DNA of 64,000 nt, from contig CAWGHO010000002.1 of the NCBI GenBank assembly GCA_963822445.1, positions 96,001-160,000 on the forward strand, read 5' to 3'. Under the pieces are notes generated by a model that was not told where the DNA came from, searched no databases, and saw only the letters and a list, made by a program, of their open reading frames with translations. Below, in pieces: positions 1,652-64,000 of this stretch. A program made the position numbers and the translations under genes. Position 1 is the stretch's first letter; the number at the start of each line of letters is the position of its first letter. The DNA is from an uncultured Acidobacteriota bacterium (GTDB lineage Bacteria > Acidobacteriota > Thermoanaerobaculia > Gp7-AA8).

Positions 1652-2520
1652 CGATCCTTCTGCATCTTGATCTGCAGCAGCGTTGCGGCGCCGATCACCA
1701 GGAACAGCACGAACGCGACCGCCGCCGCGTAACCCATTTCCCAGAACTTGAAGCCCTGCTGGTACATGAGCATGACCATGGTCACGGTCTTGTTCAGCGG
1801 ACCGCCCTGGGTCATCACGTACGGCTCGGCGAAGATCTGCAGTTGTCCGATCGCCACGACGACGCCGACGAAAAGGAACGTCGGCGCGAGCATCGGCAAC
1901 GTCACGTGCCGGAACTGTTTCCACGCACCGGCGCCATCGAGCCGCGCCGCCTCATACAGCTCTTCCGGAATCTGCTGCAGCCCGGCGATGAAGATGATCA
2001 TCGTGTAGCCGAAGCCCTTCCACACGGCCAGCAGGATGATCGCGAGCATGGCCAGCTTCGGATTGCCCAGCCAGTCCGGCTGCGGCAATCCGATCGTGTC
2101 GAGGAAGCGGTTCAGCATCCCGAAGCGCGGGTGGTAGAGGTATTTGAAGACGATCGACACCGCGACGAGCGTGGTGACGACAGGCGCGAAGTACATCGTC
2201 CGGAACAGCGACTTGAATCGCGTGAGCCGCGCGTTGACGAGGAGCGCCGCCGCGAGCGACACGGCGACGGTCAGCGGACCGCCGACCAGCGCGAAATACA
2301 TCGTGTTCGCGAACGCCGTCCAGAAAATGCTGCTGCTGAGGAGCTCCTGATAGTTGCGGATCCCGACGATGCGCACGTTTTGCGGGTCGCCGAGGGTGTA
2401 GAGATCGAAGTCGGTGAGGCTGAGGGCGAAACCGGCGATGACCGGTGCGAAGAAGAAGACCGTGAGCAGCACGATCGCCGGTGCGAGGAAGAGCAGGGCG
2501 GCGCGGGCTTCAGATTTCAT
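1648..2520 (-). CDS. Carbohydrate ABC transporter permease (MalF/UgpA-like)
   Basis: LYEAARLDGAG EAA motif, FRHVTLPML, multiple TM segments. Confidence 0.93.
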   Translation of the reverse strand: MKSEARAALLFLAPAIVLLTVFFFAPVIAGFALSLTDFDLYTLGDPQNVRIVGIRNYQELLSSSIFWTAFANTMYFALVGGPLTVAVSLAAALLVNARLTRFKSLFRTMYFAPVVTTLVAVSIVFKYLYHPRFGMLNRFLDTIGLPQPDWLGNPKLAMLAIILLAVWKGFGYTMIIFIAGLQQIPEELYEAARLDGAGAWKQFRHVTLPMLAPTFLFVGVVVAIGQLQIFAEPYVMTQGGPLNKTVTMVMLMYQQGFKFWEMGYAAAVAFVLFLVIGAATLLQIKMQKDR

Positions 2521-3830
2521 TTTCGCGTCAAAATCCAGCGCCGTTTTTCCAGCAGCTCGTCGGCGCGCTCATCGAGCGCCTTCACCGCGGCATCAACGCT
2601 CGTCGTGCCTCGCGCGGCCGCCTCGCCACGGTCGTAAATCGCGGTCGCGATCTGCTCCCACTCCGGCACTTGCGGCAGCGGCCGGACTGACTCGAGTTGC
2701 TCGCGGAATGCTGGAAAACGTGGCTCAGCGGCGAGCGCCGGGGATTTCCAGGCCGACCGGCGCGCGGGCAAATCGCCGGTGAGTTCGAAGAAACGAACCT
2801 GCTGGGCCGGCTGTGAGAGAAACTCGATGAACTTGCGCGCCGCCGGTTTGTTCTGCGACGCCCGGAAAATCACCAGACTCGAACCGCCGGCCATGGAAAT
2901 GCCCGGGCCCTTCGCATCGCGACCGGGGATCGGCGCGGTCGCCCATTTGTCCTGCATGTCCTCGGGCAGCCGCCGCCGGAACTCGCCCACGTTCCACGGA
3001 CCGCTGATGTACATGGCGAAATCGCCCTGCGCGAATTGCTGATAGAGATTCGCGATCTGCTGATTGCTCGACGCCGGCGCGTGCCCGTGCTTGAACATGT
3101 CCACGTAAAACGTGAACGCTTCGGCGAACTCACGCTGACGAAATGCCCCGCGCGTCCCCTCGGCATTCAACAGGCCCGATCCGTTCGAGAGCGCGAGCAC
3201 GACCGGAGGCTCGTATTCATTGGTCGGAATGAGGATTCCGAAGCGGCTCCTTTTCTGCGAGACGATTTTCTGCATCGCGTCGCTCCACTCCGCCCAGGTG
3301 CGCGGCCCGTTCGGATAGCCGACGCTGGCGAGAATGTCGCTGCGATAAAAGAGGACGCGCGTGTCGACGTACCACGGCACGCCGTAAAGCGATCCGGCGA
3401 CGACATTCGTCGCCCAGATGCCGGGAAAGTAGTCGCGTTGATCGACGACGTTTGATTGCGCGGCAAACGGCGTCAGATCATCCAGCGCGCGCACCGCCAC
3501 GAACTCGGCGATCCAGGTGTTGCCGATCTGCGCGACGTCCGGCGTCGAGTCGCCAACGTGCGCGGTCAGCAGCTTTTCATGCGCCGCGCTCCAGGGGATC
3601 TGCTGGACTTTGACCTTGATGCCGGGATTGAGCCGCTCGAATTCGGGGATCATCTCCGCGACGACTTCCCCCTCGCGGCCCAGGCCCCAGAACTCGAGCG
3701 TTTCCCGCGAGCTTTGCCCGCGGCACGAGAGCAGTAGGACGAATGCAGAATGCAGAATGCAGAATGCAGAAATGAGGATCCGCGATCTGTATCGCGGACT
3801 TTTCTGCATTCTGCATTCTGCATTCTGCAT
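2517..3830 (-). CDS. Sugar ABC transporter substrate-binding lipoprotein
   Basis: SBP_bac_1-like motifs (PDVAQIG, YGVPWYVDTRVLFYR, AMYISGPW) and lipobox LLSC. The N-terminus is encoded by a heptamer palindrome. Confidence 0.9.
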   Translation of the reverse strand: MQNAECRMQKSPRYRSRILISAFCILHSAFVLLLSCRGQSSRETLEFWGLGREGEVVAEMIPEFERLNPGIKVKVQQIPWSAAHEKLLTAHVGDSTPDVAQIGNTWIAEFVAVRALDDLTPFAAQSNVVDQRDYFPGIWATNVVAGSLYGVPWYVDTRVLFYRSDILASVGYPNGPRTWAEWSDAMQKIVSQKRSRFGILIPTNEYEPPVVLALSNGSGLLNAEGTRGAFRQREFAEAFTFYVDMFKHGHAPASSNQQIANLYQQFAQGDFAMYISGPWNVGEFRRRLPEDMQDKWATAPIPGRDAKGPGISMAGGSSLVIFRASQNKPAARKFIEFLSQPAQQVRFFELTGDLPARRSAWKSPALAAEPRFPAFREQLESVRPLPQVPEWEQIATAIYDRGEAAARGTTSVDAAVKALDERADELLEKRRWILTRK

Positions 3831-3832
3831 TC
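3741..3832. repeat. Perfect 32-bp inverted repeat with (GAATGCA)4 arms and a 28-nt spacer
   Basis: GAATGCAGAATGCAGAATGCAGAATGCAGAAA at 3741-3772 and its exact reverse complement at 3801-3832. Inner hairpin TCCGCGAT-CTGT-ATCGCGGA. Confidence 0.95.
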
Positions 3833-9170: not shown

Positions 9171-10514
9171 ATGGCGAAGATGTCAACGCGGTTCCCTCCT
9201 GAGTTCGTCTGGGGTGCCGCCACCTCCGCGTATCAGATCGAAGGTTCCCCCCTCGCCGACGGGGCGGGACCGAGCATCTGGCAGCGCTTCAGCCACACAC
9301 CCGGCAGGACCGCGAACGGGGAAACCGGCGACGTGGCCTGCGATCACTACAACCGCTACCGCGACGACGTCGCCCTGATGCGCGACCTCGGCCTGAACGC
9401 TTATCGCTTCAGCATTGCGTGGAGCCGCGTGTTGCCCGAGGGGACGGGCCGCGTCAACGAGAAGGGTCTCGATTTCTATCGCCGCCTCGTCGATGAGCTT
9501 CGCAATGCGGGCATCCGTCCGATGGCCACGCTCTATCACTGGGACCTGCCGGCGGCGCTGGATGATCGCGGCGGCTGGCTGAATCGCGACGTTGCGGACT
9601 GGTTCGCCGAGTACGCGACGGTGATGTATCGCGCGCTCGACGATCGCGTGGATTGGTGGGCGACCATCAACGAGCCGTGGGTTGTCATGGACGGCGGTTA
9701 CCTGCATGGACTGCTCGCGCCGGGACACAGCAATCTGTTCGAAGCGCCGATCGTGACGCACAACCTCCTGCGCGCGCATGGCCGCGCCGTGCAGGCCTAT
9801 CGCGCGGAAGGAAAGCATGCGGTCGGGCTCGTCGTGAATCTCGAGCCGAAGTATTCGGCGTCGGAGAGCGAGGAGGATCTCGCCGCGACGGCGCGCGCCG
9901 ACGCGTACATGAATCGCCACTATCTCGATCCGGTGTTTCGCGGCGCGTATCCGGAGGAGTTTCCGGACATGTGGGGCGAGGCCTGGCCGTCGTTTCCCGC
10001 GGAGGATTTCAAGGACATCACCGCGCCGGTCGACTTCATCGGCATCAATTACTACCTGCGCGGCGTGATGAAGGACGATCCGAAGACCATCGTCGAGCGC
10101 GCGACGCGGGTGCGTCAGCCGAATGCGATCTACACGACCACCGACTGGGAGGTCTATCCCGCGGCGCTGACGAAGGTCCTGCTCTGGTTTCGCGAGCGGT
10201 ACGGCGACATGCCGGTGTACATCACGGAAAACGGCTCGGCGTTTTACGACGCGCCGACAGCGATTTCGGATCCGGTCGAGGATCCGCTTCGCGTTCACTA
10301 CCTGCAGGAACACCTCCGCGCCATGGGTGAAGCTCTCGACGCCGGCGCGAACGTGCGCGGCTACTTCGCCTGGTCGCTCCTCGACAACCTCGAATGGAGC
10401 CTCGGCTACACGAAACGCTTCGGCATCGTTCACGTCGACTTTGCCACGCAGAAGCGGACGCTGAAGCGGAGTGCGCTGGTGTACCGGGATGTGATTCGAA
10501 GCGGAGCGTTGTAG
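9171..10514 (+). CDS. GH1 beta-glucosidase
   Basis: FVWGAATSAYQIEG, acid/base TINEP, nucleophile YITENG, WSLLDNLEW. Start re-called at ATG 9171 (or 9180). Confidence 0.95.
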   Translation: MAKMSTRFPPEFVWGAATSAYQIEGSPLADGAGPSIWQRFSHTPGRTANGETGDVACDHYNRYRDDVALMRDLGLNAYRFSIAWSRVLPEGTGRVNEKGLDFYRRLVDELRNAGIRPMATLYHWDLPAALDDRGGWLNRDVADWFAEYATVMYRALDDRVDWWATINEPWVVMDGGYLHGLLAPGHSNLFEAPIVTHNLLRAHGRAVQAYRAEGKHAVGLVVNLEPKYSASESEEDLAATARADAYMNRHYLDPVFRGAYPEEFPDMWGEAWPSFPAEDFKDITAPVDFIGINYYLRGVMKDDPKTIVERATRVRQPNAIYTTTDWEVYPAALTKVLLWFRERYGDMPVYITENGSAFYDAPTAISDPVEDPLRVHYLQEHLRAMGEALDAGANVRGYFAWSLLDNLEWSLGYTKRFGIVHVDFATQKRTLKRSALVYRDVIRSGAL

Positions 10515-10611
10515 ATGGAGTGCGGCGGCTCTGCCGCCGCTTTGACACCGCGCGGAGCGCGGCTCCGCCGCATCTGAAAAGCGGCGGCAGAGCCGCCGCA
10601 CTCCATCTACA
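10510..10611. repeat. REP doublet (REPIN-like), GGAGTGCGGCGGC family
   Basis: 34-bp perfect inverted arms TGTAGATGGAGTGCGGCGGCTCTGCCGCCGCTTT, each with an internal hairpin, between convergent genes. Confidence 0.9.
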
Positions 10612-13192
10612 TCGGCAACCAGTACGACAACTTCACCAGAACCACATCGTGCGACGGAGCCGTCGGGATCGCGCGCAGGTCGCGATTCAGGCTGAAGTCG
10701 CCGACGCGCTCCACGTCGGAACGGTTCTCGTTCCACACCACGTACAACGCCGAGCCGGGGCGGAACTCCCAGCGCACGACGGCGCTTCCGCGGACGCTGC
10801 GGAAATTGAAATCGCGGCTCGGCGCGGCGCCGGTGTACGGCTCGTAATCGCGAGTGCGCGCGGCCACGAGCGTGTGCGGATCGTGATAGTCGCCCGAGGC
10901 GATGAAGGGTTGGAGATAGAGCTGGAAGGAAAGCTGCGGCGTCAGCGTCCAGTCGGCGCGCGTCCCCAACTCGAACGAGCGTTGTTCCAACTCCGCGAAG
11001 AGATAGCGGATGCCGAATGTTTGCGTCGCGCCGTCGTCCTTGAATTTGTCGAGGAACTGCGTCTGCGTGTGCGACTGCGAGTAATAAGGATTCAGGCTGA
11101 GCTGGACGTTCGGCCTCGGTCTCGCGTTCAGCGACAGCCCGAAACCGCGCGTGTACGAACCGTCGTCGCTCCGGGACTGGTACGTGTTCACGTTGCCGTA
11201 GAACGTCTTGCGGTCATCGCTGCCGATGTGGCCGTCGAAACTCCACGAGCCTGGACTGCGCACCACCGGCCCGCCGCGGGTCAGGCGATCGTCGTAGCTC
11301 GACGGCGTGATGAAGACCGCCGAGCGGAACTCCCAGAAATTCTGCAGAGTGCCGAAACCGTCCGCGAAGAAGCCGCGCTCGATCGTGTCGCCGTCGAAAT
11401 TGCGGTTTTGCCAGCCACCGAACCAGAGATGCTTCTCGCGAAACTTCTTCGTCGGGTTCTGATTCACGTACTGCATCACGAAGTGCGAGGAAATGATGTC
11501 CGTGCGCTGCATGAAACCAGCGTCGTTGGTCTCGTATCCCGGCGAATACGCCTGCACCTGCACGATCGGACGCCAGATCCCGGTGGCCTTCGAGATCATG
11601 GCCTTGCCGCCCCAGCCCGTCAGCGACGTGCGGGTCTCGTCGAGCTCCACATGTCGCGCGTCCGGCCGCTGGTAATAGCGCGATGAGGATTGCTGCGTCA
11701 GCGAGATCGCTTCCTCGCTGCCGCTGACACTCGAGCCGAACAGCGAGCCTTCGAGGATCCAGGACTTGTCGCGGAAGCTCGTGTATGCATCCACACCACC
11801 GGTCAGCGCGGAATCGCGGAGCGACGTCATTTCATCCGGCAGGCGCCGATTCACCGACGTCAACAGGAAGCCGACGCGGGACCGGTCGCCGATCTCCTTC
11901 GTCAGGCGCGAGACGAAGTAATTCGTCATCGGCTCGACCTGCTCGCGTCCGAGCTCGATCTTGTCCTCGATGCCGTCTCCGTCCGCATCGACGCGCCGCC
12001 CGAATCGCGAGCGTTCCGCATCCGTCAACGCATCCAGCACGCCCAGCGACCAGCCGCCGGGCAGGCGACCGGTGATCTTTGCCGCGCCGAGGATCGTCGT
12101 TTCCGCGGGGGAGATGAAAAAGTCCGCGTCCGGCGTCACCTGCGGCGAGCGGCCGATGCGCCGCGTGTAGAAAAGGCTCGGCGCGAACATGAAATTGAAG
12201 TGACTCGGCGCCGGCGTGTCGCCGAAACGGAAGATGTTCACCCCTTCTGTGAAGAACGGCCGCTTCTCCGGATAAAAGGTCTCGAACTCGCTGAGGTTCA
12301 CGACCGCGGGATCGACTTCGACCTGTCCGAAATCGGGATTGATCGTGCCGGTCAGAGTGAGGCTCGACGTCAGCGCGTACTTCACGTCGAGCCCGGCGTC
12401 GACGCGATGATCCTGTCCGGGCAGCAGCGGATTGACGTCCTCGTCGAAACGCGTGCGCACGTCGCCGCGAGTCACCGCGTAAGGCACGAGCTCCAGCGAA
12501 CGGCCGCGGCGGATTCCCTCGATGCCGATAATGTCCGCGAAATGGGAGACGAAGCCGGTCTCCCCCTTCTTCGTATTGACGATGCGCGACCACTCGTTGA
12601 TGCGCGTGGTCCGCCGGGTGATGTTGAGACCCCAGGTGTGCACCGGCTTGTCGTGAAAGCGGAGCTGCGAATACGGGATGCGCACTTCGCCGATCCAGCC
12701 GTCAGGAACGATCTTGACCGCCGAGTCCCACACGCCGTCCCAGCTGCCGTCCTCGCCGATGTCGTTGTAGAGGACCGTGTCGACCTGCACGTTCGCCGGC
12801 GAGATCGTGAACGCGTTTCCGGAAAGGCGATCGAGCTGCGGATCGATGTTGATCGAGAGGAAGTCTGACTGCGTGAACGAATCGCGGCGCGCGAGGATGG
12901 CCGTGGGCGGCTGAGGGTCTTCCATCCTCGCGCCGAAATAGATCGCCTCGTCGTCGTACACGATGCGGATGCTCGTGCGCAGGGTCGCCGGCGCACCGTC
13001 GACGGGATCGTGCTGCGTGAAATCGGTGAACTCCGGCGCGTTCTGCCACGCCGCATCGGAGAGATCGCCGTCGAGCACCGGCGGCGCGGTCACGCGGACG
13101 GCGCGCAGTTGCGGACGATCGGGCCAGTTCGCGGCATGCGCGGCTCCGGCGGCGAGAAGAGCGAGGGCGGCGGCGAGCGCGCGTCTGTTCAT
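10607..13192 (-). CDS. CBM9-like + DUF5916 outer membrane protein
   Basis: PVLDGDLSDAAW, WDGVWDSA, TINPDFGQVEVD, YPEKRPFF, LFYTRRIG; signal peptide. Confidence 0.82.
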   Translation of the reverse strand: MNRRALAAALALLAAGAAHAANWPDRPQLRAVRVTAPPVLDGDLSDAAWQNAPEFTDFTQHDPVDGAPATLRTSIRIVYDDEAIYFGARMEDPQPPTAILARRDSFTQSDFLSINIDPQLDRLSGNAFTISPANVQVDTVLYNDIGEDGSWDGVWDSAVKIVPDGWIGEVRIPYSQLRFHDKPVHTWGLNITRRTTRINEWSRIVNTKKGETGFVSHFADIIGIEGIRRGRSLELVPYAVTRGDVRTRFDEDVNPLLPGQDHRVDAGLDVKYALTSSLTLTGTINPDFGQVEVDPAVVNLSEFETFYPEKRPFFTEGVNIFRFGDTPAPSHFNFMFAPSLFYTRRIGRSPQVTPDADFFISPAETTILGAAKITGRLPGGWSLGVLDALTDAERSRFGRRVDADGDGIEDKIELGREQVEPMTNYFVSRLTKEIGDRSRVGFLLTSVNRRLPDEMTSLRDSALTGGVDAYTSFRDKSWILEGSLFGSSVSGSEEAISLTQQSSSRYYQRPDARHVELDETRTSLTGWGGKAMISKATGIWRPIVQVQAYSPGYETNDAGFMQRTDIISSHFVMQYVNQNPTKKFREKHLWFGGWQNRNFDGDTIERGFFADGFGTLQNFWEFRSAVFITPSSYDDRLTRGGPVVRSPGSWSFDGHIGSDDRKTFYGNVNTYQSRSDDGSYTRGFGLSLNARPRPNVQLSLNPYYSQSHTQTQFLDKFKDDGATQTFGIRYLFAELEQRSFELGTRADWTLTPQLSFQLYLQPFIASGDYHDPHTLVAARTRDYEPYTGAAPSRDFNFRSVRGSAVVRWEFRPGSALYVVWNENRSDVERVGDFSLNRDLRAIPTAPSHDVVLVKLSYWLPM

Positions 13193-28260: not shown

Positions 28261-28336
28261 TGGAGCCGATGACCGGACTCGAACCGGTGACCTGCTGATT
28301 ACGAATCAGCTGCTCTACCAACTGAGCTACATCGGC
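28261..28336 (-). tRNA. tRNA-Thr(CGT)
   Basis: GCCGATGTAGCTCAGTTGGTAGAGCAGCTGATTCGTAATCAGCAGGTCACCGGTTCGAGTCCGGTCATCGGCTCCA; full cloverleaf, encoded CCA. Confidence 0.97.
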
Positions 28337-28433: not shown

Positions 28434-28509
28434 GCGCCCTTAGCTCAATGGATAGAGCAGCGGTCTTCGGAACCGCTGGTTGGGGGTTCGAGTCCCTCAG
28501 GGCGCGCCA
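28434..28509 (+). tRNA. tRNA-Arg(TCG)
   Basis: GCGCCCT acceptor stem, anticodon arm GCGGT-CTTCGGA-ACCGC, GGTTCGA T-loop, encoded CCA. Confidence 0.95.
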
Positions 28510-34808: not shown

Positions 34809-34897
34809 TCTGGACTGCGGCGGCAAAGCCGCCGCTCTGGCTGCCGGCGGCTTTGCCGCCGGAGTGGAGAGCGGTAGCTCTGCTACCGCAGTCCAGA
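34809..34897. repeat. REP doublet, GGACTGCGGCGGC variant (related to the 10510 element)
   Basis: 30-nt inverted arms TCTGGACTGCGGCGGCAAAGCCGCCGCTCT and AGAGCGGTAGCTCTGCTACCGCAGTCCAGA with a central hairpin. Confidence 0.85.
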
Positions 34898-38160: not shown

Positions 38161-39366
38161 ATGTCGCTGCTGCCGACGCTCGAGGTGATCGTTCACACTC
38201 TACGCCATGCATTCGCCGATCGCGCGCGGCGGGCCTGGCGCGCGGCCGTTCATCGCGACAAGAAGTTACGCATCGGCGTCGACATCCGCCCGTTCTACGA
38301 GCCGCTGACCGGCGTTGGCTGGTATCTCTACTACCTCCTGCACGAGCTGGCGAAGCGCGATGACGTCGACCTGTATCTCTTCGGCGATGCGCGTGTGACC
38401 GATCTCGGCCCGAAGCTGCATGCGGACCTGCCGAAGAACGCGCGCTACTGCACGTTCGATCTGCGCGGGTTGCCGGTGTCGGGCCTCGCGCGACCGTTGA
38501 CCGCCGCGGCGTACGTCGGATGGATGGCGCTGACGGACTGCGACGTCTTCTTCGGCGCGAACTATTTCCTGCCGCGGCTGCACGGCGCGATCGCGAAGCG
38601 GCGGGTGATCACCATCCACGATCTGACCTACAAACGCTTTCCGGAGCTGCTGCAGAAGGAGACGCTGGAGAGTCTCGAGCGTCACGTGTCCCGCGAGATC
38701 GCCATCGCCGACGCGATCATCTGCGTGTCGGAATCGACGCGACGCGATCTGCTGCGGTTTTACCAGGTCGATCCCGCACGCGCCGTCGCCATTCACTCGG
38801 GTCTCGGCACGCCGGCGACCGCGGAGCCTGTCGAAGGTCTGCCCGCGCGCTACATCCTCTTCGTCAGCACCATCGAGCCCCGCAAGGACCTCGGCACCCT
38901 CATCGACGCCTTCGAGCGCCTGCGCGATTACCCGGGGTCGCTGGTGATCGTGGGCAAGGTGGGGTGGAAGTCGGAGCATTTGATTCCTCGCCTGCGCGGA
39001 CCGCGAATCGTGCACCTCGACTATTTGCCAGCGTCTGAGCTGGCGACGGTGTACCGGAGCGCCGAGGTGTTTGTGTTCCCGTCGCTGTACGAGGGTTTCG
39101 GATTCCCGCTGCTCGAAGCAATGGTGAGTGGAGTGCCGACGATTGCGGCGCGGTCTTCGTCCTTGCCGGAGATTGGCGGCGATGCGGCGCTGTACTTCGA
39201 GCCCGGCGATGCCGGGGAACTGGAAGAGCAGCTGCGCCGCCTTCTCGGCGACGAGGTCCTGCGCAATGAGCTCATCGACCGCGGGCGGCGGCGGGCGGCG
39301 GCGTTCCGGTGGGAGGAGGCGGCAAAGAGGACGCTCGAAGTTTTTCGTCGCGTCGCGAACACGTAG
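38161..39366 (+). CDS. GT4 glycosyltransferase
   Basis: ITIHDL, IEPRKD, FPSLYEGFGFPLLEAM. Confidence 0.92.
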   Translation: MSLLPTLEVIVHTLRHAFADRARRAWRAAVHRDKKLRIGVDIRPFYEPLTGVGWYLYYLLHELAKRDDVDLYLFGDARVTDLGPKLHADLPKNARYCTFDLRGLPVSGLARPLTAAAYVGWMALTDCDVFFGANYFLPRLHGAIAKRRVITIHDLTYKRFPELLQKETLESLERHVSREIAIADAIICVSESTRRDLLRFYQVDPARAVAIHSGLGTPATAEPVEGLPARYILFVSTIEPRKDLGTLIDAFERLRDYPGSLVIVGKVGWKSEHLIPRLRGPRIVHLDYLPASELATVYRSAEVFVFPSLYEGFGFPLLEAMVSGVPTIAARSSSLPEIGGDAALYFEPGDAGELEEQLRRLLGDEVLRNELIDRGRRRAAAFRWEEAAKRTLEVFRRVANT

Positions 39367-39449
39367 TCTCAAAGTCGCAAAGTCTCAAAGTCGTAAAGAG
39401 GTGATGGCGTCTACACTTTGAGACTTTGAGACTTTGAGACTTTGCGACT
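39365..39449. repeat. Inverted repeat with four AGTCTCAA-type octamers per arm
   Basis: AGTCTCAA AGTCGCAA AGTCTCAA AGTCGTAA AG at 39365-39398; 17-nt spacer; CT TTGAGACT x3 TTGCGACT at 39416-39449. Confidence 0.9.
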
Positions 39450-46199: not shown

Positions 46200-46310
46200 T
46201 TAGTTTATCCCGCGCGCAGACGCGGGATCTCTCGGTGCACCTGCGAAACCGCTCGTCATGATCCCCTCAGTGCACGGAGAGATCCCGCGTCTGCGCGCGG
46301 GATAAACTAA
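46200..46310. repeat. 111-bp MITE/REPIN-like element with 41-bp inverted arms
   Basis: TTAGTTTATCCCGCGCGCAGACGCGGGATCTCTC(G/C)GTGCAC arms, 40/41 complementary, each with an internal ATCCCGCG hairpin. Confidence 0.9.
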
Positions 46311-49945: not shown

Positions 49946-50035
49946 GAATGCAGAATGCAGAATGCAAAATGCAGAAAAGAATCGACGGTCCGTGCTCAGA
50001 CACTTTCTGCATTCTGCATTTTGCATTCTGCATTT
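49946..50035. repeat. Second (GAATGCA)4-arm inverted repeat
   Basis: GAATGCAGAATGCAGAATGCAAAATGCAGAAA, 26-nt spacer, TTTCTGCATTCTGCATTTTGCATTCTGCATTT. Confidence 0.93.
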
Positions 50036-62087: not shown

Positions 62088-63110
62088 GTGAGTTCGCCAA
62101 ACGTCAACGCCACAATCGACTTAGCCGACATTCGCTCTGCCGGCGCCCGCATCGGGCCCTACGTCCACCGCACCCCGCTCCTGGCCAGCCGTTCCCTGTC
62201 CGAGCGCCTCGGCGTGGAAGTGCGCCTCAAGTGCGAGAACCTCCAGCGCGCGGGCTCGTTCAAGATCCGTGGGGCGATGAACGCGCTGCTGCAGGTCGAT
62301 GAGGCCCACCGTTCTCGCGGGGTGGTGGCCTTCTCCTCCGGCAATCACGCTCAGGGTGTGGCCCTGGCGGCGCGGCTCCTGGGCATGACCGCGACGATCG
62401 TCATGCCCGAGAACTCCGTGCGGACAAAGGTCGACGCTACAAAGGCTTACGGCGCGACGGTCGTCCAGGGCGGCGTCACCGCGGCGACGCGGGACACGGT
62501 CGCGCGCGAGATCGCCGAGAAGACCGGCGCGACCGTGATCCCCCCGTTCGACGACGAGCGGATCATCGCCGGCGCGGGCACGGTCGGGCTGGAGATCGTC
62601 GAGGAGTGGCCGGAGGTCAGCACGATCGTCGTCCCGCTGGGCGGCGGCGGGTTGTTGTCCGGGGTGGCGCTGGCGGCCGCCGGTGTGGTGCAGGCCTCCG
62701 GCCTGCCTTTGGGCGGGGGACACGAGAGGCAGGCCGGAGGCCTGCACCACACCCGGATCGATGTCTACGGCGTCGAGCCGGCCGCCGGCAACGACGGCGA
62801 GCAATCCTTCAAAACCGGCAAAATCGTCAACATCGATCCTCCCAACACCATCGCCGACGGCGCCCGGACCCTGGCCATCGGCACCCGGAACTTCGCCGTG
62901 ATCCGGGAGCACGTCCGGGACGTGGTCAGCGTCGACGACGACGTCCTCCTCGAAACCGTGAAGTGGACGATGTACCGCACCAAGATGGTCATCGAGCCGA
63001 CCGGTGCGCTGGGTGTCGCGGCGCTGATCGACGGAAAGATCAAGCCGCGAGGCCCCGTGGCGATCGTGATCAGCGGCGGGAACCTCGACTTCTCGCTCCT
63101 CTGCCGATGA
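62088..63110 (+). CDS. Threonine/serine dehydratase (PLP, serine racemase family)
   Basis: KCENLQRAGSFKIRGA, SSGNHAQG, GGGGL, TIADG, SGGN. Confidence 0.93.
   Translation: MSSPNVNATIDLADIRSAGARIGPYVHRTPLLASRSLSERLGVEVRLKCENLQRAGSFKIRGAMNALLQVDEAHRSRGVVAFSSGNHAQGVALAARLLGMTATIVMPENSVRTKVDATKAYGATVVQGGVTAATRDTVAREIAEKTGATVIPPFDDERIIAGAGTVGLEIVEEWPEVSTIVVPLGGGGLLSGVALAAAGVVQASGLPLGGGHERQAGGLHHTRIDVYGVEPAAGNDGEQSFKTGKIVNIDPPNTIADGARTLAIGTRNFAVIREHVRDVVSVDDDVLLETVKWTMYRTKMVIEPTGALGVAALIDGKIKPRGPVAIVISGGNLDFSLLCR
62682..62753. repeat. REP doublet inserted in frame in the dehydratase gene
   Basis: Perfect 27-bp arms GGTGTGGTGCAGGCCTCCGGCCTGCCT and its reverse complement, 18-nt spacer, 72 nt total. 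Confidence 0.93.
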
Positions 63111-64000
63111 GCGGCTCTCTCTTCGGGGACGACGACTTCGCCCCACTGACCACGCCGCCCGACGCCCCGCTGCCGGAGCGTCTCCGTCCGAAATCGCTCG
63201 AGGACATCGTCGGACTGGAGGACCTCCTCGGCGAAAAGCGCTTCCTGCGCAACGCCATCGAGACCGATCGCATCCCGTCGATGATCTTCTGGGGACCGCC
63301 GGGATCGGGCAAGACCACGCTGGCGCGGATCATCGCCAAGACCACGCGGGCGCGATTCGTCACCTTCTCCGCAACCTCCACCGGAATCAAGGAAATCAAG
63401 ACGTTAATGGAAGAGGCGCGGAAGTCGCGGCAGGCTCGCGGCTCCAAGACCATTGTCTTCATCGACGAGATCCATCGCTTCAACAAAGCGCAGCAGGACG
63501 CGTTTCTGCCGTACGTCGAGGCCGGCGACATCATCCTCATCGGCGCGACCACCGAGAATCCGTCCTTCGAGGTGAACTCCGCGCTCCTGTCGCGGTCGAA
63601 GGTCGTGGTGATCCCTGCTCTGGAGCGCGAGCAGGTCATGACCATTCTTCACCGCGCCGTGGCCGATCCGAGCGTGCAGAAGTTCGGCATCGAGCTGACC
63701 GGCGAGGCACTCGACTTCATCGCCGCGACCTCAGGCGGCGACGCGCGGCAGGCCCTGACCAGCCTGCAACTGGTGATCGAGACCGCGTCGAAGGAAGACA
63801 GCCCGATCGGCGCGCAGAAGGTCACGGAGATCCTCCAGCGCCGCTCGCTGATGTACGACAAAGGCGGCGAAGAGCACTACAACATCATCTCCGCGCTCCA
63901 CAAATCGCTGCGGAACGGCGACGCCGATGCGTCGGTGTACTGGCTGGTACGCATGCTCGAAGGCGGCGAAGATCCGATGTACATCGCCCGCCGGCTCGTG
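63107..64000 (+). CDS. rarA: Replication-associated recombination protein A (MgsA), 3' truncated
   Basis: PLPERLRP, WGPPGSGKTTLA, FIDEIHRFNKAQQD, GATTENPSF, HYNIISALHKS. Absent from the ORF track because it has no stop in the window. Confidence 0.95.
   Translation, partial: MSGSLFGDDDFAPLTTPPDAPLPERLRPKSLEDIVGLEDLLGEKRFLRNAIETDRIPSMIFWGPPGSGKTTLARIIAKTTRARFVTFSATSTGIKEIKTLMEEARKSRQARGSKTIVFIDEIHRFNKAQQDAFLPYVEAGDIILIGATTENPSFEVNSALLSRSKVVVIPALEREQVMTILHRAVADPSVQKFGIELTGEALDFIAATSGGDARQALTSLQLVIETASKEDSPIGAQKVTEILQRRSLMYDKGGEEHYNIISALHKSLRNGDADASVYWLVRMLEGGEDPMYIARRLV

What the first reader, a model, noticed from the sequence alone, without database searches (positions are those of the whole stretch)
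62682..62753. REP doublet inserted in frame inside a PLP enzyme, adding a 24-aa palindrome-encoded loop
Seen: a perfect 27-bp inverted repeat with internal hairpins (GCAGGCC-TCC-GGCCTGC), 72 nt long and codon-aligned. It encodes GVVQASGLPLGGGHERQAGGLHHT between GGGGLLSGVALAAA and RIDVYGVEP, where family members have only a short helix-strand turn. Catalytic motifs and the frame are intact, and perfect arms imply a recent event. Known analogue: Rickettsia palindromic elements. With the signal-peptide and RNase J cases, this suggests palindromic elements are actively creating protein sequence in this genome.
Basis: partly seen in the sequence, partly recalled or inferred. Interest (0 to 1): 0.78.

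Follow-up and report, generated by a model that had tools for sequence, protein, structure and literature searches.

The report
Mobile palindrome inserted inside an enzyme gene
A 72-base palindromic repeat element has landed in frame inside a vitamin-B6-dependent enzyme gene and adds a floppy 24-residue surface loop; this kind of event is already described in other bacteria, so it is a clean new example rather than a new phenomenon.

Summary
A perfect 27-nt inverted repeat with an 18-nt spacer (72 nt, 62682-62753) starts exactly at codon 199 of a 340-aa fold-type II PLP enzyme of the serine racemase / threonine dehydratase group. Close orthologues (92-93% identical) lack it; deleting 72 nt regenerates the local sequence of one of them exactly. 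The palindrome is a GTGG-tagged REP doublet (REPIN-like). The same tag plus hairpin recurs, mostly outside genes, in many genomes of Acidobacteriota, Verrucomicrobiota, Planctomycetota and others, and partner arms keep the hairpin through compensatory changes. The element has no stop codon in any frame, is 24 codons long, and is modelled as a disordered loop between a helix and a strand of an otherwise confident fold. New here: 10 of the 120 listed proteins (the window's own plus 9 relatives) carry an insert at this same codon, eight from this family including one half element. Two come from a second REP family that is also present in the window. No RAYT transposase was found, and the copy number in the source genome could not be measured. 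Intragenic REP dimers encoding 20-30 aa are already published (Di Nocera 2013). Verdict: new member of a known kind, moderate interest.

The parts
62682..62753 (.). REP doublet (REPIN-like palindrome), 72 nt = 24 codons (aa 199-222 of the host protein)
   Evidence: Perfect 27-nt arms with an 18-nt spacer; fold z = -9.9; stop-free in all six frames.
62682..62708 (+). Left REP unit: GTGG tag at 62685-62688, then the nested hairpin GCAGGCC-TCC-GGCCTGC at 62690-62706
   Evidence: The same tag plus hairpin is present in 55 of 111 matches from other genomes.
62709..62726 (.). 18-nt spacer (TTGGGCGGGGGACACGAG), encoding LGGGHE
   Evidence: Spacer length and sequence differ among orthologues and among family copies.
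62727..62753 (-). Right REP unit, the exact reverse complement of the left one (hairpin 62729-62745, CCAC at 62747-62750)
62088..63110 (+). Host gene: 340-aa fold-type II PLP enzyme of the serine racemase / threonine dehydratase / threo-3-hydroxy-L-aspartate ammonia-lyase group
   Evidence: PF00291 E = 7.7e-74; PDB 1v71 E = 3.8e-82; Foldseek TM 0.80-0.85 to 1v71, 2gn0 and 5cvc; best NCBIfam model NF005454 at 366 bits, below its 452-bit cutoff.
62672..62681 (.). 10-nt perfect palindrome GGCGGCCGCC in the host coding sequence, directly abutting the element; a possible target feature (speculative)
   Evidence: Read. No test was possible without DNA of the empty alleles.
63107..64000 (+). Downstream MgsA/RarA-type AAA+ ATPase gene; its ATG overlaps the host gene's TGA (ATGA)
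   Evidence: AAA, AAA_assoc_2, MgsA_C.

Best explanation
A REPIN-type doublet of a GT[G/A]G-tagged REP family inserted into the coding sequence of a housekeeping PLP enzyme, at the codon joining the helix that follows the Gly-rich PLP-phosphate loop to the next beta-strand. The gene survives for three reasons: the inserted DNA is 72 nt (24 codons), it has no stop codon in any frame, and it sits at a surface turn at the far end of an 11-residue helix from the cofactor. The product is the normal enzyme with an extra, probably disordered, Gly/Ala/His-rich loop. The loop is most likely a tolerated passenger and not an adaptation. Shown: the palindrome, the in-frame position, the empty allele, family membership, recurrence at this site, and the disordered-loop model. 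Inferred: mobilisation as single-stranded DNA by a RAYT-type (IS200/IS605-like) tyrosine transposase, recency of this copy, and retained enzyme activity.
For: Insertion and empty site: P0007 (92% identical) reads VALAAA-G-IDVY and P0005 (93% identical) reads VALASVGKNVY. Deleting 72 nt starting at 62683, 62684 or 62685 gives GVALAAAGIDVYGVEP, identical to P0007 locally. Of the 120 listed proteins (P0001 is the window's own), 107 have linkers of 11-19 aa, 3 did not fit my motif, and 10 (including the window's) have long linkers of 22-38 aa.

55 of 111 matches also carry the 5' TGT[G/A] extension. These cluster in particular genomes: 18 loci in one Verrucomicrobiales MAG, 9 in another, 9 in MAG MFD05684.bin.1.163 and 4 in Thermoanaerobaculia MAG149. 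A 27/27 arm occurs in Thermoanaerobaculia MAG140. Inverted doublets with the tags pointing outward recur (L048, L053, L017, L028, L033, L064, L065, L076, L083). 22 of 24 partner arms keep 7/7 stem pairs despite 1-4 base differences. 40 of the 55 family hits have no open high-GC3 frame across them, and L053 and L061 sit right after TAG stops.

Tolerance: the element is stop-free in six frames. The AlphaFold2 model has pLDDT 80 and pTM 0.82, with helix 188-198, coil 199-224 (pLDDT below 50 at 201-220) and strand 225-231. K59, S83-H87, G185-G188 and S329-N332 are invariant in the 28-sequence alignment.

The same family in frame elsewhere: a Phycisphaerae LeuRS reads hfslVVQASGLQELQAGSLHHisvfttrpdt where T. 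thermophilus LeuRS has lfpvEGKEVRipvfttrpdt.

Authenticity: ten alleles of this gene (the window's plus nine metagenome-derived proteins) keep the frame through inserts of different lengths.
Against: No Y1/RAYT transposase was found: 0 of 43 window ORFs and 0 of 117 ORFs flanking 80 loci. The window holds only one copy of this family, and the source contig was not among the rows returned, so repetition in this genome is unshown. Insertion boundaries are ambiguous by 1-3 nt (a GG on both sides), so no target duplication or cleavage site can be named. Activity and expression are untested; a perfect 27-bp GC-rich stem in the mRNA could lower expression. The second in-gene case that I examined in a Thermoanaerobaculia genome (L048) is not a clean insertion, because the REP-coded 21 aa replace a hypervariable segment that is longer in most relatives.
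Confidence: 0.8

Rival explanations
1. History rival A: one ancient insertion in the ancestor of this clade, inherited vertically and diverging, with empty alleles produced by later precise excision or by recombination between alleles.
For: All 10 long linkers are among the 14 top-listed proteins. Seven full-length inserts and one half element share the VQASG...GG core at the same codon. Precise excision of REPINs was seen in sequencing reads (PMC3116915, passages). Strongly supported tree branches force only 2 or more changes of state.
Against: Filled and empty alleles interleave on the tree: 10 changes are needed for 10 filled rows, with filled/empty sister pairs P0009/P0029 (98), P0004/P0040 (92) and P0008/P0020 (92). 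Two alleles (P0010, P0012) carry a different REP family, which cannot derive from the first. Several differences between alleles are two-sided and complementary (P0004 V>G with H>P; P0008 Q>W with L>P and V>G with H>S), as expected from separate insertions of distinct palindromic variants. Junctions differ (VALAAA-GVV versus VAL-GVV).
Confidence: 0.3
2. The loop or its RNA hairpin has been recruited for a function, for example regulating mRNA stability or translation of this gene and the coupled downstream gene, or forming a new protein surface. It would then be kept by selection and not merely tolerated.
For: Inserts persist in frame in ten alleles. The hairpin is very stable. The gene is translationally coupled to the next one (ATGA overlap). 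Complementary two-sided changes keep arm pairing in some alleles.
Against: The closest relatives do without it (P0005, P0007, P0011, P0013). Insert sequence, length and even REP family vary between alleles. The loop is modelled as disordered. 40 of 55 family copies elsewhere have no open high-GC3 frame across them.
Confidence: 0.1
3. It is not mobile DNA. It is a native hypervariable loop whose DNA happens to be palindromic, or an assembly artefact.
For: There is only one copy in 64 kb. Reads could not be inspected.
Against: 0 of 100 shuffles gave the 27-mer and the fold z is -9.9. The same 23-27 nt occurs at unrelated loci in other genomes, including 27/27 in a Thermoanaerobaculia MAG. Empty alleles exist. 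Related inserts occur in nine other metagenome-derived proteins of this gene.
Confidence: 0.03

Closest known systems
Intragenic GTAG-tagged REP dimers (Di Nocera, De Gregorio and Rocco 2013, BMC Genomics, PMC3733652; passages read and Additional file 3 searched)
   Same: A short stem-loop with a GTAG-type tag at one end (the paper notes GTGG in most O. terrae GTAG-20 units); mostly extragenic; often inverted dimers; a minority lie wholly inside ORFs, where dimers encode 20-30 aa; tRNA synthetase and recB genes are among the hosts; different REPs sit at about the same site in the recB genes of two Xanthomonas species; tolerance is ascribed to flexible linkers or loops.
   Different: This family's peptides are absent from their list of intragenic REPs; the only hit among 6 peptide words was AGLRPAP in R. 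castenholzii GTAG-23, whose other peptides differ. Their GTAG survey names Proteobacteria, Cyanobacteria, Chloroflexi and PVC, not Acidobacteria. The host here is a PLP enzyme. Here, ten alleles of one gene show two REP families at one codon.
REPINs (Bertels and Rainey 2011, PLoS Genet, PMC3116915, passages; abstract of PMC3337134)
   Same: Two REPs in inverted orientation with a short spacer that form a long hairpin; about 71 bp for the GI doublet in P. fluorescens SBW25 versus 72 nt here; the doublet is the presumed mobile unit, moved in trans by a RAYT; excision has been observed.
   Different: REPINs were defined in extragenic space and beside a RAYT gene; here the copy is intragenic and no RAYT was found. 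REPIN-RAYT systems are described as mostly vertically inherited (abstract of 10.1101/2022.05.22.493013), whereas this tag plus hairpin is seen in several phyla.
Rickettsia palindromic elements (RPE), as described in passages of PMC10969869 and PMC3733652; the primary papers were recalled, not read
   Same: Palindromic repeats inserted in frame in unrelated housekeeping genes, adding peptide segments judged compatible with fold and function.
   Different: RPEs are about 150 bp (PMC10969869), Rickettsia-specific and tagged CGTC rather than GTAG (PMC3733652). This element is 72 nt, GTGG-tagged and probably from an acidobacterium.
Bacterial MITEs that give in-frame fusions (ERIC, BOX and others; review PMC10969869, passages)
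   Same: Small non-autonomous palindromic repeats that are occasionally intragenic and translated.
   Different: MITEs are 70-300 bp derivatives of IS elements with terminal inverted repeats (PMC3733652 passage) and, from memory, target-site duplications. No duplication can be shown here, and the nested tag-plus-hairpin units are REP-like.

Membership tests
REP / REPIN (GTAG-type, RAYT-associated) | Unit of 20-40 nt able to form a stem-loop | tested here: met
   27-nt arm with a 7-bp stem and 3-nt loop; 22 of 24 partner arms keep 7/7 stem pairs through compensatory changes.
REP / REPIN (GTAG-type, RAYT-associated) | GTAG-type tetranucleotide at one end of the stem-loop | tested here: met
   GTGG at 62685-62688; GTAG in the MAG149 copies L015, L048 and L061. 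GTRG and GTGG variants are accepted in PMC3733652.
REP / REPIN (GTAG-type, RAYT-associated) | Many copies per genome, mostly extragenic | tested here: inconclusive
   Met in other genomes (18, 9, 9 and 4 loci in four MAGs within a truncated scan; 40 of 55 family hits have no open high-GC3 frame). In the source genome only 1 copy in 64 kb is visible.
REP / REPIN (GTAG-type, RAYT-associated) | Inverted doublet with a spacer that folds into one long hairpin | tested here: met
   the same layout occurs in L048, L053, L017, L028, L033, L064, L065, L076 and L083.
REP / REPIN (GTAG-type, RAYT-associated) | A cognate RAYT (Y1 HUH transposase) gene in the genome, flanked by the REPs | tested here: inconclusive
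   0 of 43 window ORFs and 0 of 117 flanking ORFs match Y1_Tnp. Only 64 kb of the source genome and +/-1.5 kb around 80 loci were seen.
Rickettsia palindromic elements | About 150-bp unit, CGTC tag, Rickettsia host | tested here: not met
   72 nt with a GTGG tag; relatives of the host gene are named Thermoanaerobaculia or Acidobacteriota by their sources.
MITE | Terminal inverted repeats plus a target-site duplication | tested here: inconclusive
   The arms could be read as terminal inverted repeats. Only a 2-nt GG is shared by both junctions, and the boundaries are ambiguous by 1-3 nt.
Fold-type II PLP enzymes (PALP; serine racemase / Ser-Thr dehydratase group) | PALP domain and fold | tested here: met
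   PF00291 at 249 bits against a cutoff of 35; TM 0.80-0.85 to 1v71, 2gn0 and 5cvc.
Fold-type II PLP enzymes (PALP; serine racemase / Ser-Thr dehydratase group) | PLP-lysine (SFKIRG), SSGNHAQ loop, GGGG phosphate loop, C-terminal SGGN (roles recalled from the serine racemase literature) | tested here: met
   K59, S83-H87, G185-G188 and S329-N332 are invariant in 28 sequences and align with 1v71.
threo-3-hydroxy-L-aspartate ammonia-lyase (NF005454 equivalog) | Score at or above the curated cutoff | tested here: not met
   366 bits (filled) and 381 bits (empty allele P0007) against a cutoff of 452; the substrate is left open.

The most novel reading that the evidence does not exclude
This codon of the enzyme gene is a true insertion hot spot. 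At least two unrelated REP families, and several variants of one of them, were targeted there independently in different lineages of an uncultured acidobacterial clade, perhaps because the adjacent 10-nt palindrome GGCGGCCGCC mimics a REP hairpin for the transposase. In addition, the same tag-plus-hairpin REP is shared by four or more phyla, which would mean horizontal spread of a REP/RAYT system usually regarded as vertically inherited.
Probability: 0.25. Interest if true: 0.55.

Novelty: new member of a known kind. Interest (0 to 1): 0.38.

Why it matters
It is a clean natural example, with both filled and empty alleles, of selfish palindromic DNA adding peptide to a conserved enzyme without breaking it. 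It also extends intragenic REPs to a poorly studied, probably acidobacterial, lineage. The series of alleles (empty, full doublet, half element, decayed doublets and a second REP family at one codon) is a ready-made system for two questions. One is whether such inserts are targeted or merely filtered by selection. The other is how much extra loop a fold-type II PLP enzyme tolerates. For annotation, it warns that REP-encoded segments in GC-rich genomes can be real protein sequence, and that they split HMM and BLAST alignments into two pieces.

Tried and rejected
(1) Reading-frame bias. In 8 Pfam-supported genes the core is read as VVQASGL, which looked like a property of the element. The control removed this: among hits without the family's 5' extension, 9 of 16 intragenic calls use the same frame, against 8 of 11 for family hits. 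The bias follows from GC-rich codon usage.

(2) Peptide search. A 40-aa stretch searched against longer proteins gave 184 candidates and 3 hits, all already-known alleles. This says nothing about other host proteins.

(3) RAYT hunt. There was no Y1_Tnp among 43 window ORFs or 117 ORFs next to REP hits (117 of the 206 GC3-filtered ORFs, those of 330 aa or fewer).

(4) Rfam. Only two tRNAs matched in the window and nothing at the element.

(5) L048 as a second clean insertion. It was rejected because the REP-coded segment replaces a hypervariable stretch.

(6) L041. Its match lies inside a CarboxypepD_reg domain match and may be native coding sequence.

(7) Identity with the published GTAG-23 family. 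A single shared peptide word looks coincidental.

(8) The genome scan returned only the first 100 rows, and the source contig (2.53 Mb) was not among them. I chose the DNA pattern over search for related loci, so no orthologue DNA was fetched.

Full report
OBSERVATION. The window holds, at 62682-62753, two 27-nt arms that are 100% complementary, separated by 18 nt. Each arm contains a nested 7-bp/3-nt hairpin, GCAGGCC-TCC-GGCCTGC. The 27-mer occurs nowhere else in the 64 kb, and none of 100 shuffles gave a match. The stretch folds at -76.4 kcal/mol as RNA (z = -9.9) and -42.3 kcal/mol as DNA (z = -8.4). The palindrome begins exactly at codon 199 of ORF 62088..63110 (+) and encodes GVVQASGLPLGGGHERQAGGLHHT.

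HOST GENE. The 340-aa product is a fold-type II PLP enzyme: PF00291 at E = 7.7e-74, and S. pombe serine racemase 1v71 at E = 3.8e-82, followed by T. thermophilus threonine deaminase and maize serine racemase. The best NCBIfam model is threo-3-hydroxy-L-aspartate ammonia-lyase, but both the filled protein (366 bits) and an empty allele (381 bits) fall below its 452-bit cutoff, so I leave the substrate open. The residues that I recall as catalytic or cofactor-binding in this group are invariant in a 28-sequence alignment: the Lys of SFKIRG, SSGNHAQ, GGGG and SGGN. The stop codon overlaps the start of a MgsA/RarA-type AAA+ gene (ATGA). Sources name relatives of the enzyme as Thermoanaerobaculia or Acidobacteriota MAG proteins, so the organism is probably of that class. 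This is an inference.

EMPTY SITE. PDB alignments break between query residues 198/200 and 224, where the homologues have about five residues. The search listed 120 proteins, of which P0001 is the window's own. In these, the linker between GGGGLLxG and GVEP is 11 aa in 36, 13-15 aa in 70 and 19 aa in one; three did not fit my motif; ten, including the window's, have linkers of 22-38 aa. P0007 (92% identical) reads VALAAA-G-IDVY, and P0005 (93% identical) is also empty. Removing 72 nt from the window starting at 62683, 62684 or 62685 gives GVALAAAGIDVYGVEP, identical to P0007 locally. Starting at 62682 gives AAARID. The event is therefore a net gain of exactly 24 codons with no loss of host residues. 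Its boundaries are ambiguous by 1-3 nt because GG flanks both junctions.

THE ELEMENT IS A REP DOUBLET. Of 111 matches, 55 also carry TGT[G/A] immediately 5' of the core, which gives a GTGG or GTAG tag next to the stem. The hits concentrate in particular genomes: 18 and 9 loci in two Verrucomicrobiales MAGs, 9 in MAG MFD05684.bin.1.163, and 4 in Thermoanaerobaculia MAG149. A 27/27 arm lies at a contig end of Thermoanaerobaculia MAG140. Many copies are inverted doublets with the tags outward and a spacer, as in the window; others are tandem arrays (L007, L009, L055). In 24 doublets the partner arm differs from the reference by 1-6 bases, yet 22 keep all seven stem pairs, for example GCAGCCG/CGGCTGC and GCAGTCC/GGACTGC. 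The hairpin is thus conserved as a structure. By a flank-GC3 criterion, 40 of the 55 family hits have no open coding frame across them, 11 are intragenic and 4 lie at locus edges. In MAG149 two copies sit directly after TAG stop codons. A tag, a stem-loop, inverted dimers and mostly extragenic copies are the defining features of GTAG-type REPs and REPINs (PMC3733652 passages; PMC3116915 passages). Two features remain unshown. No Y1/RAYT transposase was found among 43 window ORFs or 117 ORFs flanking the hits. The copy number in the source genome is unknown, because its contig was not among the returned rows.

WHY THE GENE SURVIVES. The 72 nt contain no stop codon in any of the six frames, and 72 is a multiple of three. 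An AlphaFold2 model built on the 28-sequence alignment (pLDDT 80, pTM 0.82) gives helix 188-198, a coil at 199-224 with pLDDT below 50 at 201-220, and strand 225-231, with the rest of the fold confident. The model superposes on serine racemases and TdcB at TM 0.80-0.85. The helix starts at the Gly-rich phosphate loop. The insert is at its other end, about 16 A away by helix geometry (an inference). All ten long-linker alleles keep the downstream frame and the conserved C-terminal half, which argues that the gene is read through the insert and stays under selection.

RECURRENCE AT ONE CODON.

- Seven alleles carry full versions of this family's insert: the window's, plus P0002, P0003, P0004, P0006, P0008 and P0009. 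P0014 carries half an element (GVVQASGLP).
- P0010 and P0012 carry a different insert, KFWSAAAPAAAPAGGERESGSSAAAVQK and its variant. Its ends match translations of the window's own palindrome at 34809-34897 (KLWTAAA in one frame, ESGSSATAVQ in another). This is a second REP family at the same codon.
- On a tree built without the linker (43 of the top 45 proteins; P0022 and P0044 were dropped because my motif failed), filled and empty alleles interleave. Ten changes of state are needed for ten filled rows, and there are filled/empty sister pairs at 98, 92 and 92% SH-aLRT. However, only 4 of 40 inner branches are strongly supported, and those force only two changes.
- I had no orthologue DNA, so I computed the minimum number of arm mismatches that the mirrored codon pairs allow: at least 0 (P0003), 1 (P0004, P0006, P0008), 2 (P0009) and 3 (P0002) of 27.
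- Several differences between alleles are two-sided and complementary: V>G with H>P in P0004, and Q>W with L>P plus V>G with H>S in P0008.
- Together with the different junctions (VALAAA-GVV versus VAL-GVV), I favour several independent insertions, which is certain for the two families. A single old insertion of the first family followed by excisions is not excluded.
- I cannot tell whether the site is targeted or is simply the only place where this compact enzyme tolerates an insert. A 10-nt perfect palindrome, GGCGGCCGCC, abuts the element.

SAME FAMILY INSIDE OTHER GENES. I sent the longest ORFs spanning the core to Pfam. Nine of 20 had domain matches.

- The clearest case is a Phycisphaerae leucyl-tRNA synthetase. 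It reads ...HFSLVVQASGLQELQAGSLHHISVFTTRPDT..., where T. thermophilus LeuRS has ...LFPVEGKEVRIPVFTTRPDT....
- Other cases are a patatin-domain protein (L015), a gene with the element between FG-GAP/ASPIC and TPR domains (L025), a Ser/Thr kinase linker (L001), and a HEAT-repeat protein in four Verrucomicrobiaceae genomes (L012, L022, L059, L080).
- In the RecB-family nuclease of MAG149 (L048), the REP-coded 21 aa replace a hypervariable segment that is longer in most of the 23 closest relatives, so this is not a clean insertion.
- One relative, P0142, has ECGGSPP...KPPHSKS at that position, resembling the translation of the window's 10507-type palindrome.
- The L041 match lies within a CarboxypepD_reg domain and may be native sequence.

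COMPARISON WITH WHAT IS KNOWN. Di Nocera et al. 2013 (PMC3733652; passages and Additional file 3) already report the following. GTAG and CGTC REPs occur wholly inside ORFs in several species. More than half of such inserts are dimers or groups encoding 20-30 aa. O. terrae is richest in them, and its GTAG-20 units mostly carry GTGG. tRNA synthetase and recB genes are among the hosts. Different REPs sit at about the same site in recB of two Xanthomonas species. Location in loops may make the inserts neutral. The Rickettsia RPEs are the older analogue, but they are about 150 bp and CGTC-tagged. This family's peptides are not in that paper's list, and its GTAG survey does not name Acidobacteria. 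A full-text search for REP, Acidobacteria and intragenic returned only that paper. The finding is therefore a new member of a known kind. The allelic series at one codon, and the presence of the same tag plus hairpin in several phyla, are the points that go beyond the published description.

LIMITS. I had no DNA for the orthologues, no reads, no expression data and no full source genome. The peptide search was uninformative. The apparent reading-frame preference of intragenic copies was shown by a control to reflect codon usage.

Noticed in passing
window 3741-3832 and gene 2520-3830 (-): A palindrome built of GAATGCA heptamer repeats overlaps the 5' end of a solute-binding protein gene (SBP_bac_1 from aa 54). 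The only start codons upstream of the domain (3830 and 3809) lie inside the palindrome. Its second arm would encode ...ILISAFCILHSAFVLLLSC, which looks like a lipoprotein signal peptide with a lipobox. This may be a second case of palindrome-encoded protein sequence.
   Followed up: partly
window 49947-50034: A second copy of the same heptamer-repeat palindrome lies between the BacA gene and RNase J. RNase J ends (...VIWEM*) just before it, so this copy is extragenic.
   Followed up: yes
window 10507-10614, 34809-34897, 39365-39449, 46200-46310: Four more long nested palindromes of other sequence families each nearly fill a short gap between ORFs. The 34809 family is the one found translated at the PLP-enzyme site in orthologues P0010 and P0012. 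The 10507 unit carries a GTAG.
   Followed up: partly
loci L001-L100 (genome contigs): The same GT[G/A]G tag plus GCAGGCC-TCC-GGCCTGC hairpin occurs in MAGs labelled Verrucomicrobiales, Planctomycetota/Phycisphaerae, Lentisphaerae, Gemmatimonadaceae, Holophagae, Solibacteraceae and Thermoanaerobaculia. This is unusually wide for one REP family, given that REPIN-RAYT systems are described as mostly vertically inherited.
   Followed up: partly
L007:1490-1610, L009:1580-1780, L055:1500-1580: The REP unit occurs as head-to-tail tandem arrays with periods of 25-29 nt and no spacers, a different arrangement from the inverted doublets.
   Followed up: no
P0134 and P0137 (relatives of the L048 nuclease): Both carry a shared extra segment, VILSR[A/V]DGEGPP..., in the same hypervariable region; possibly another repeat-derived insert.
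   Followed up: no
window 62672-62681: A 10-nt perfect palindrome, GGCGGCCGCC, in the host coding sequence directly abuts the element's first base.
   Followed up: no
window 28264-28336 (-) and 28434-28506 (+): Two divergently oriented tRNA genes.
   Followed up: no
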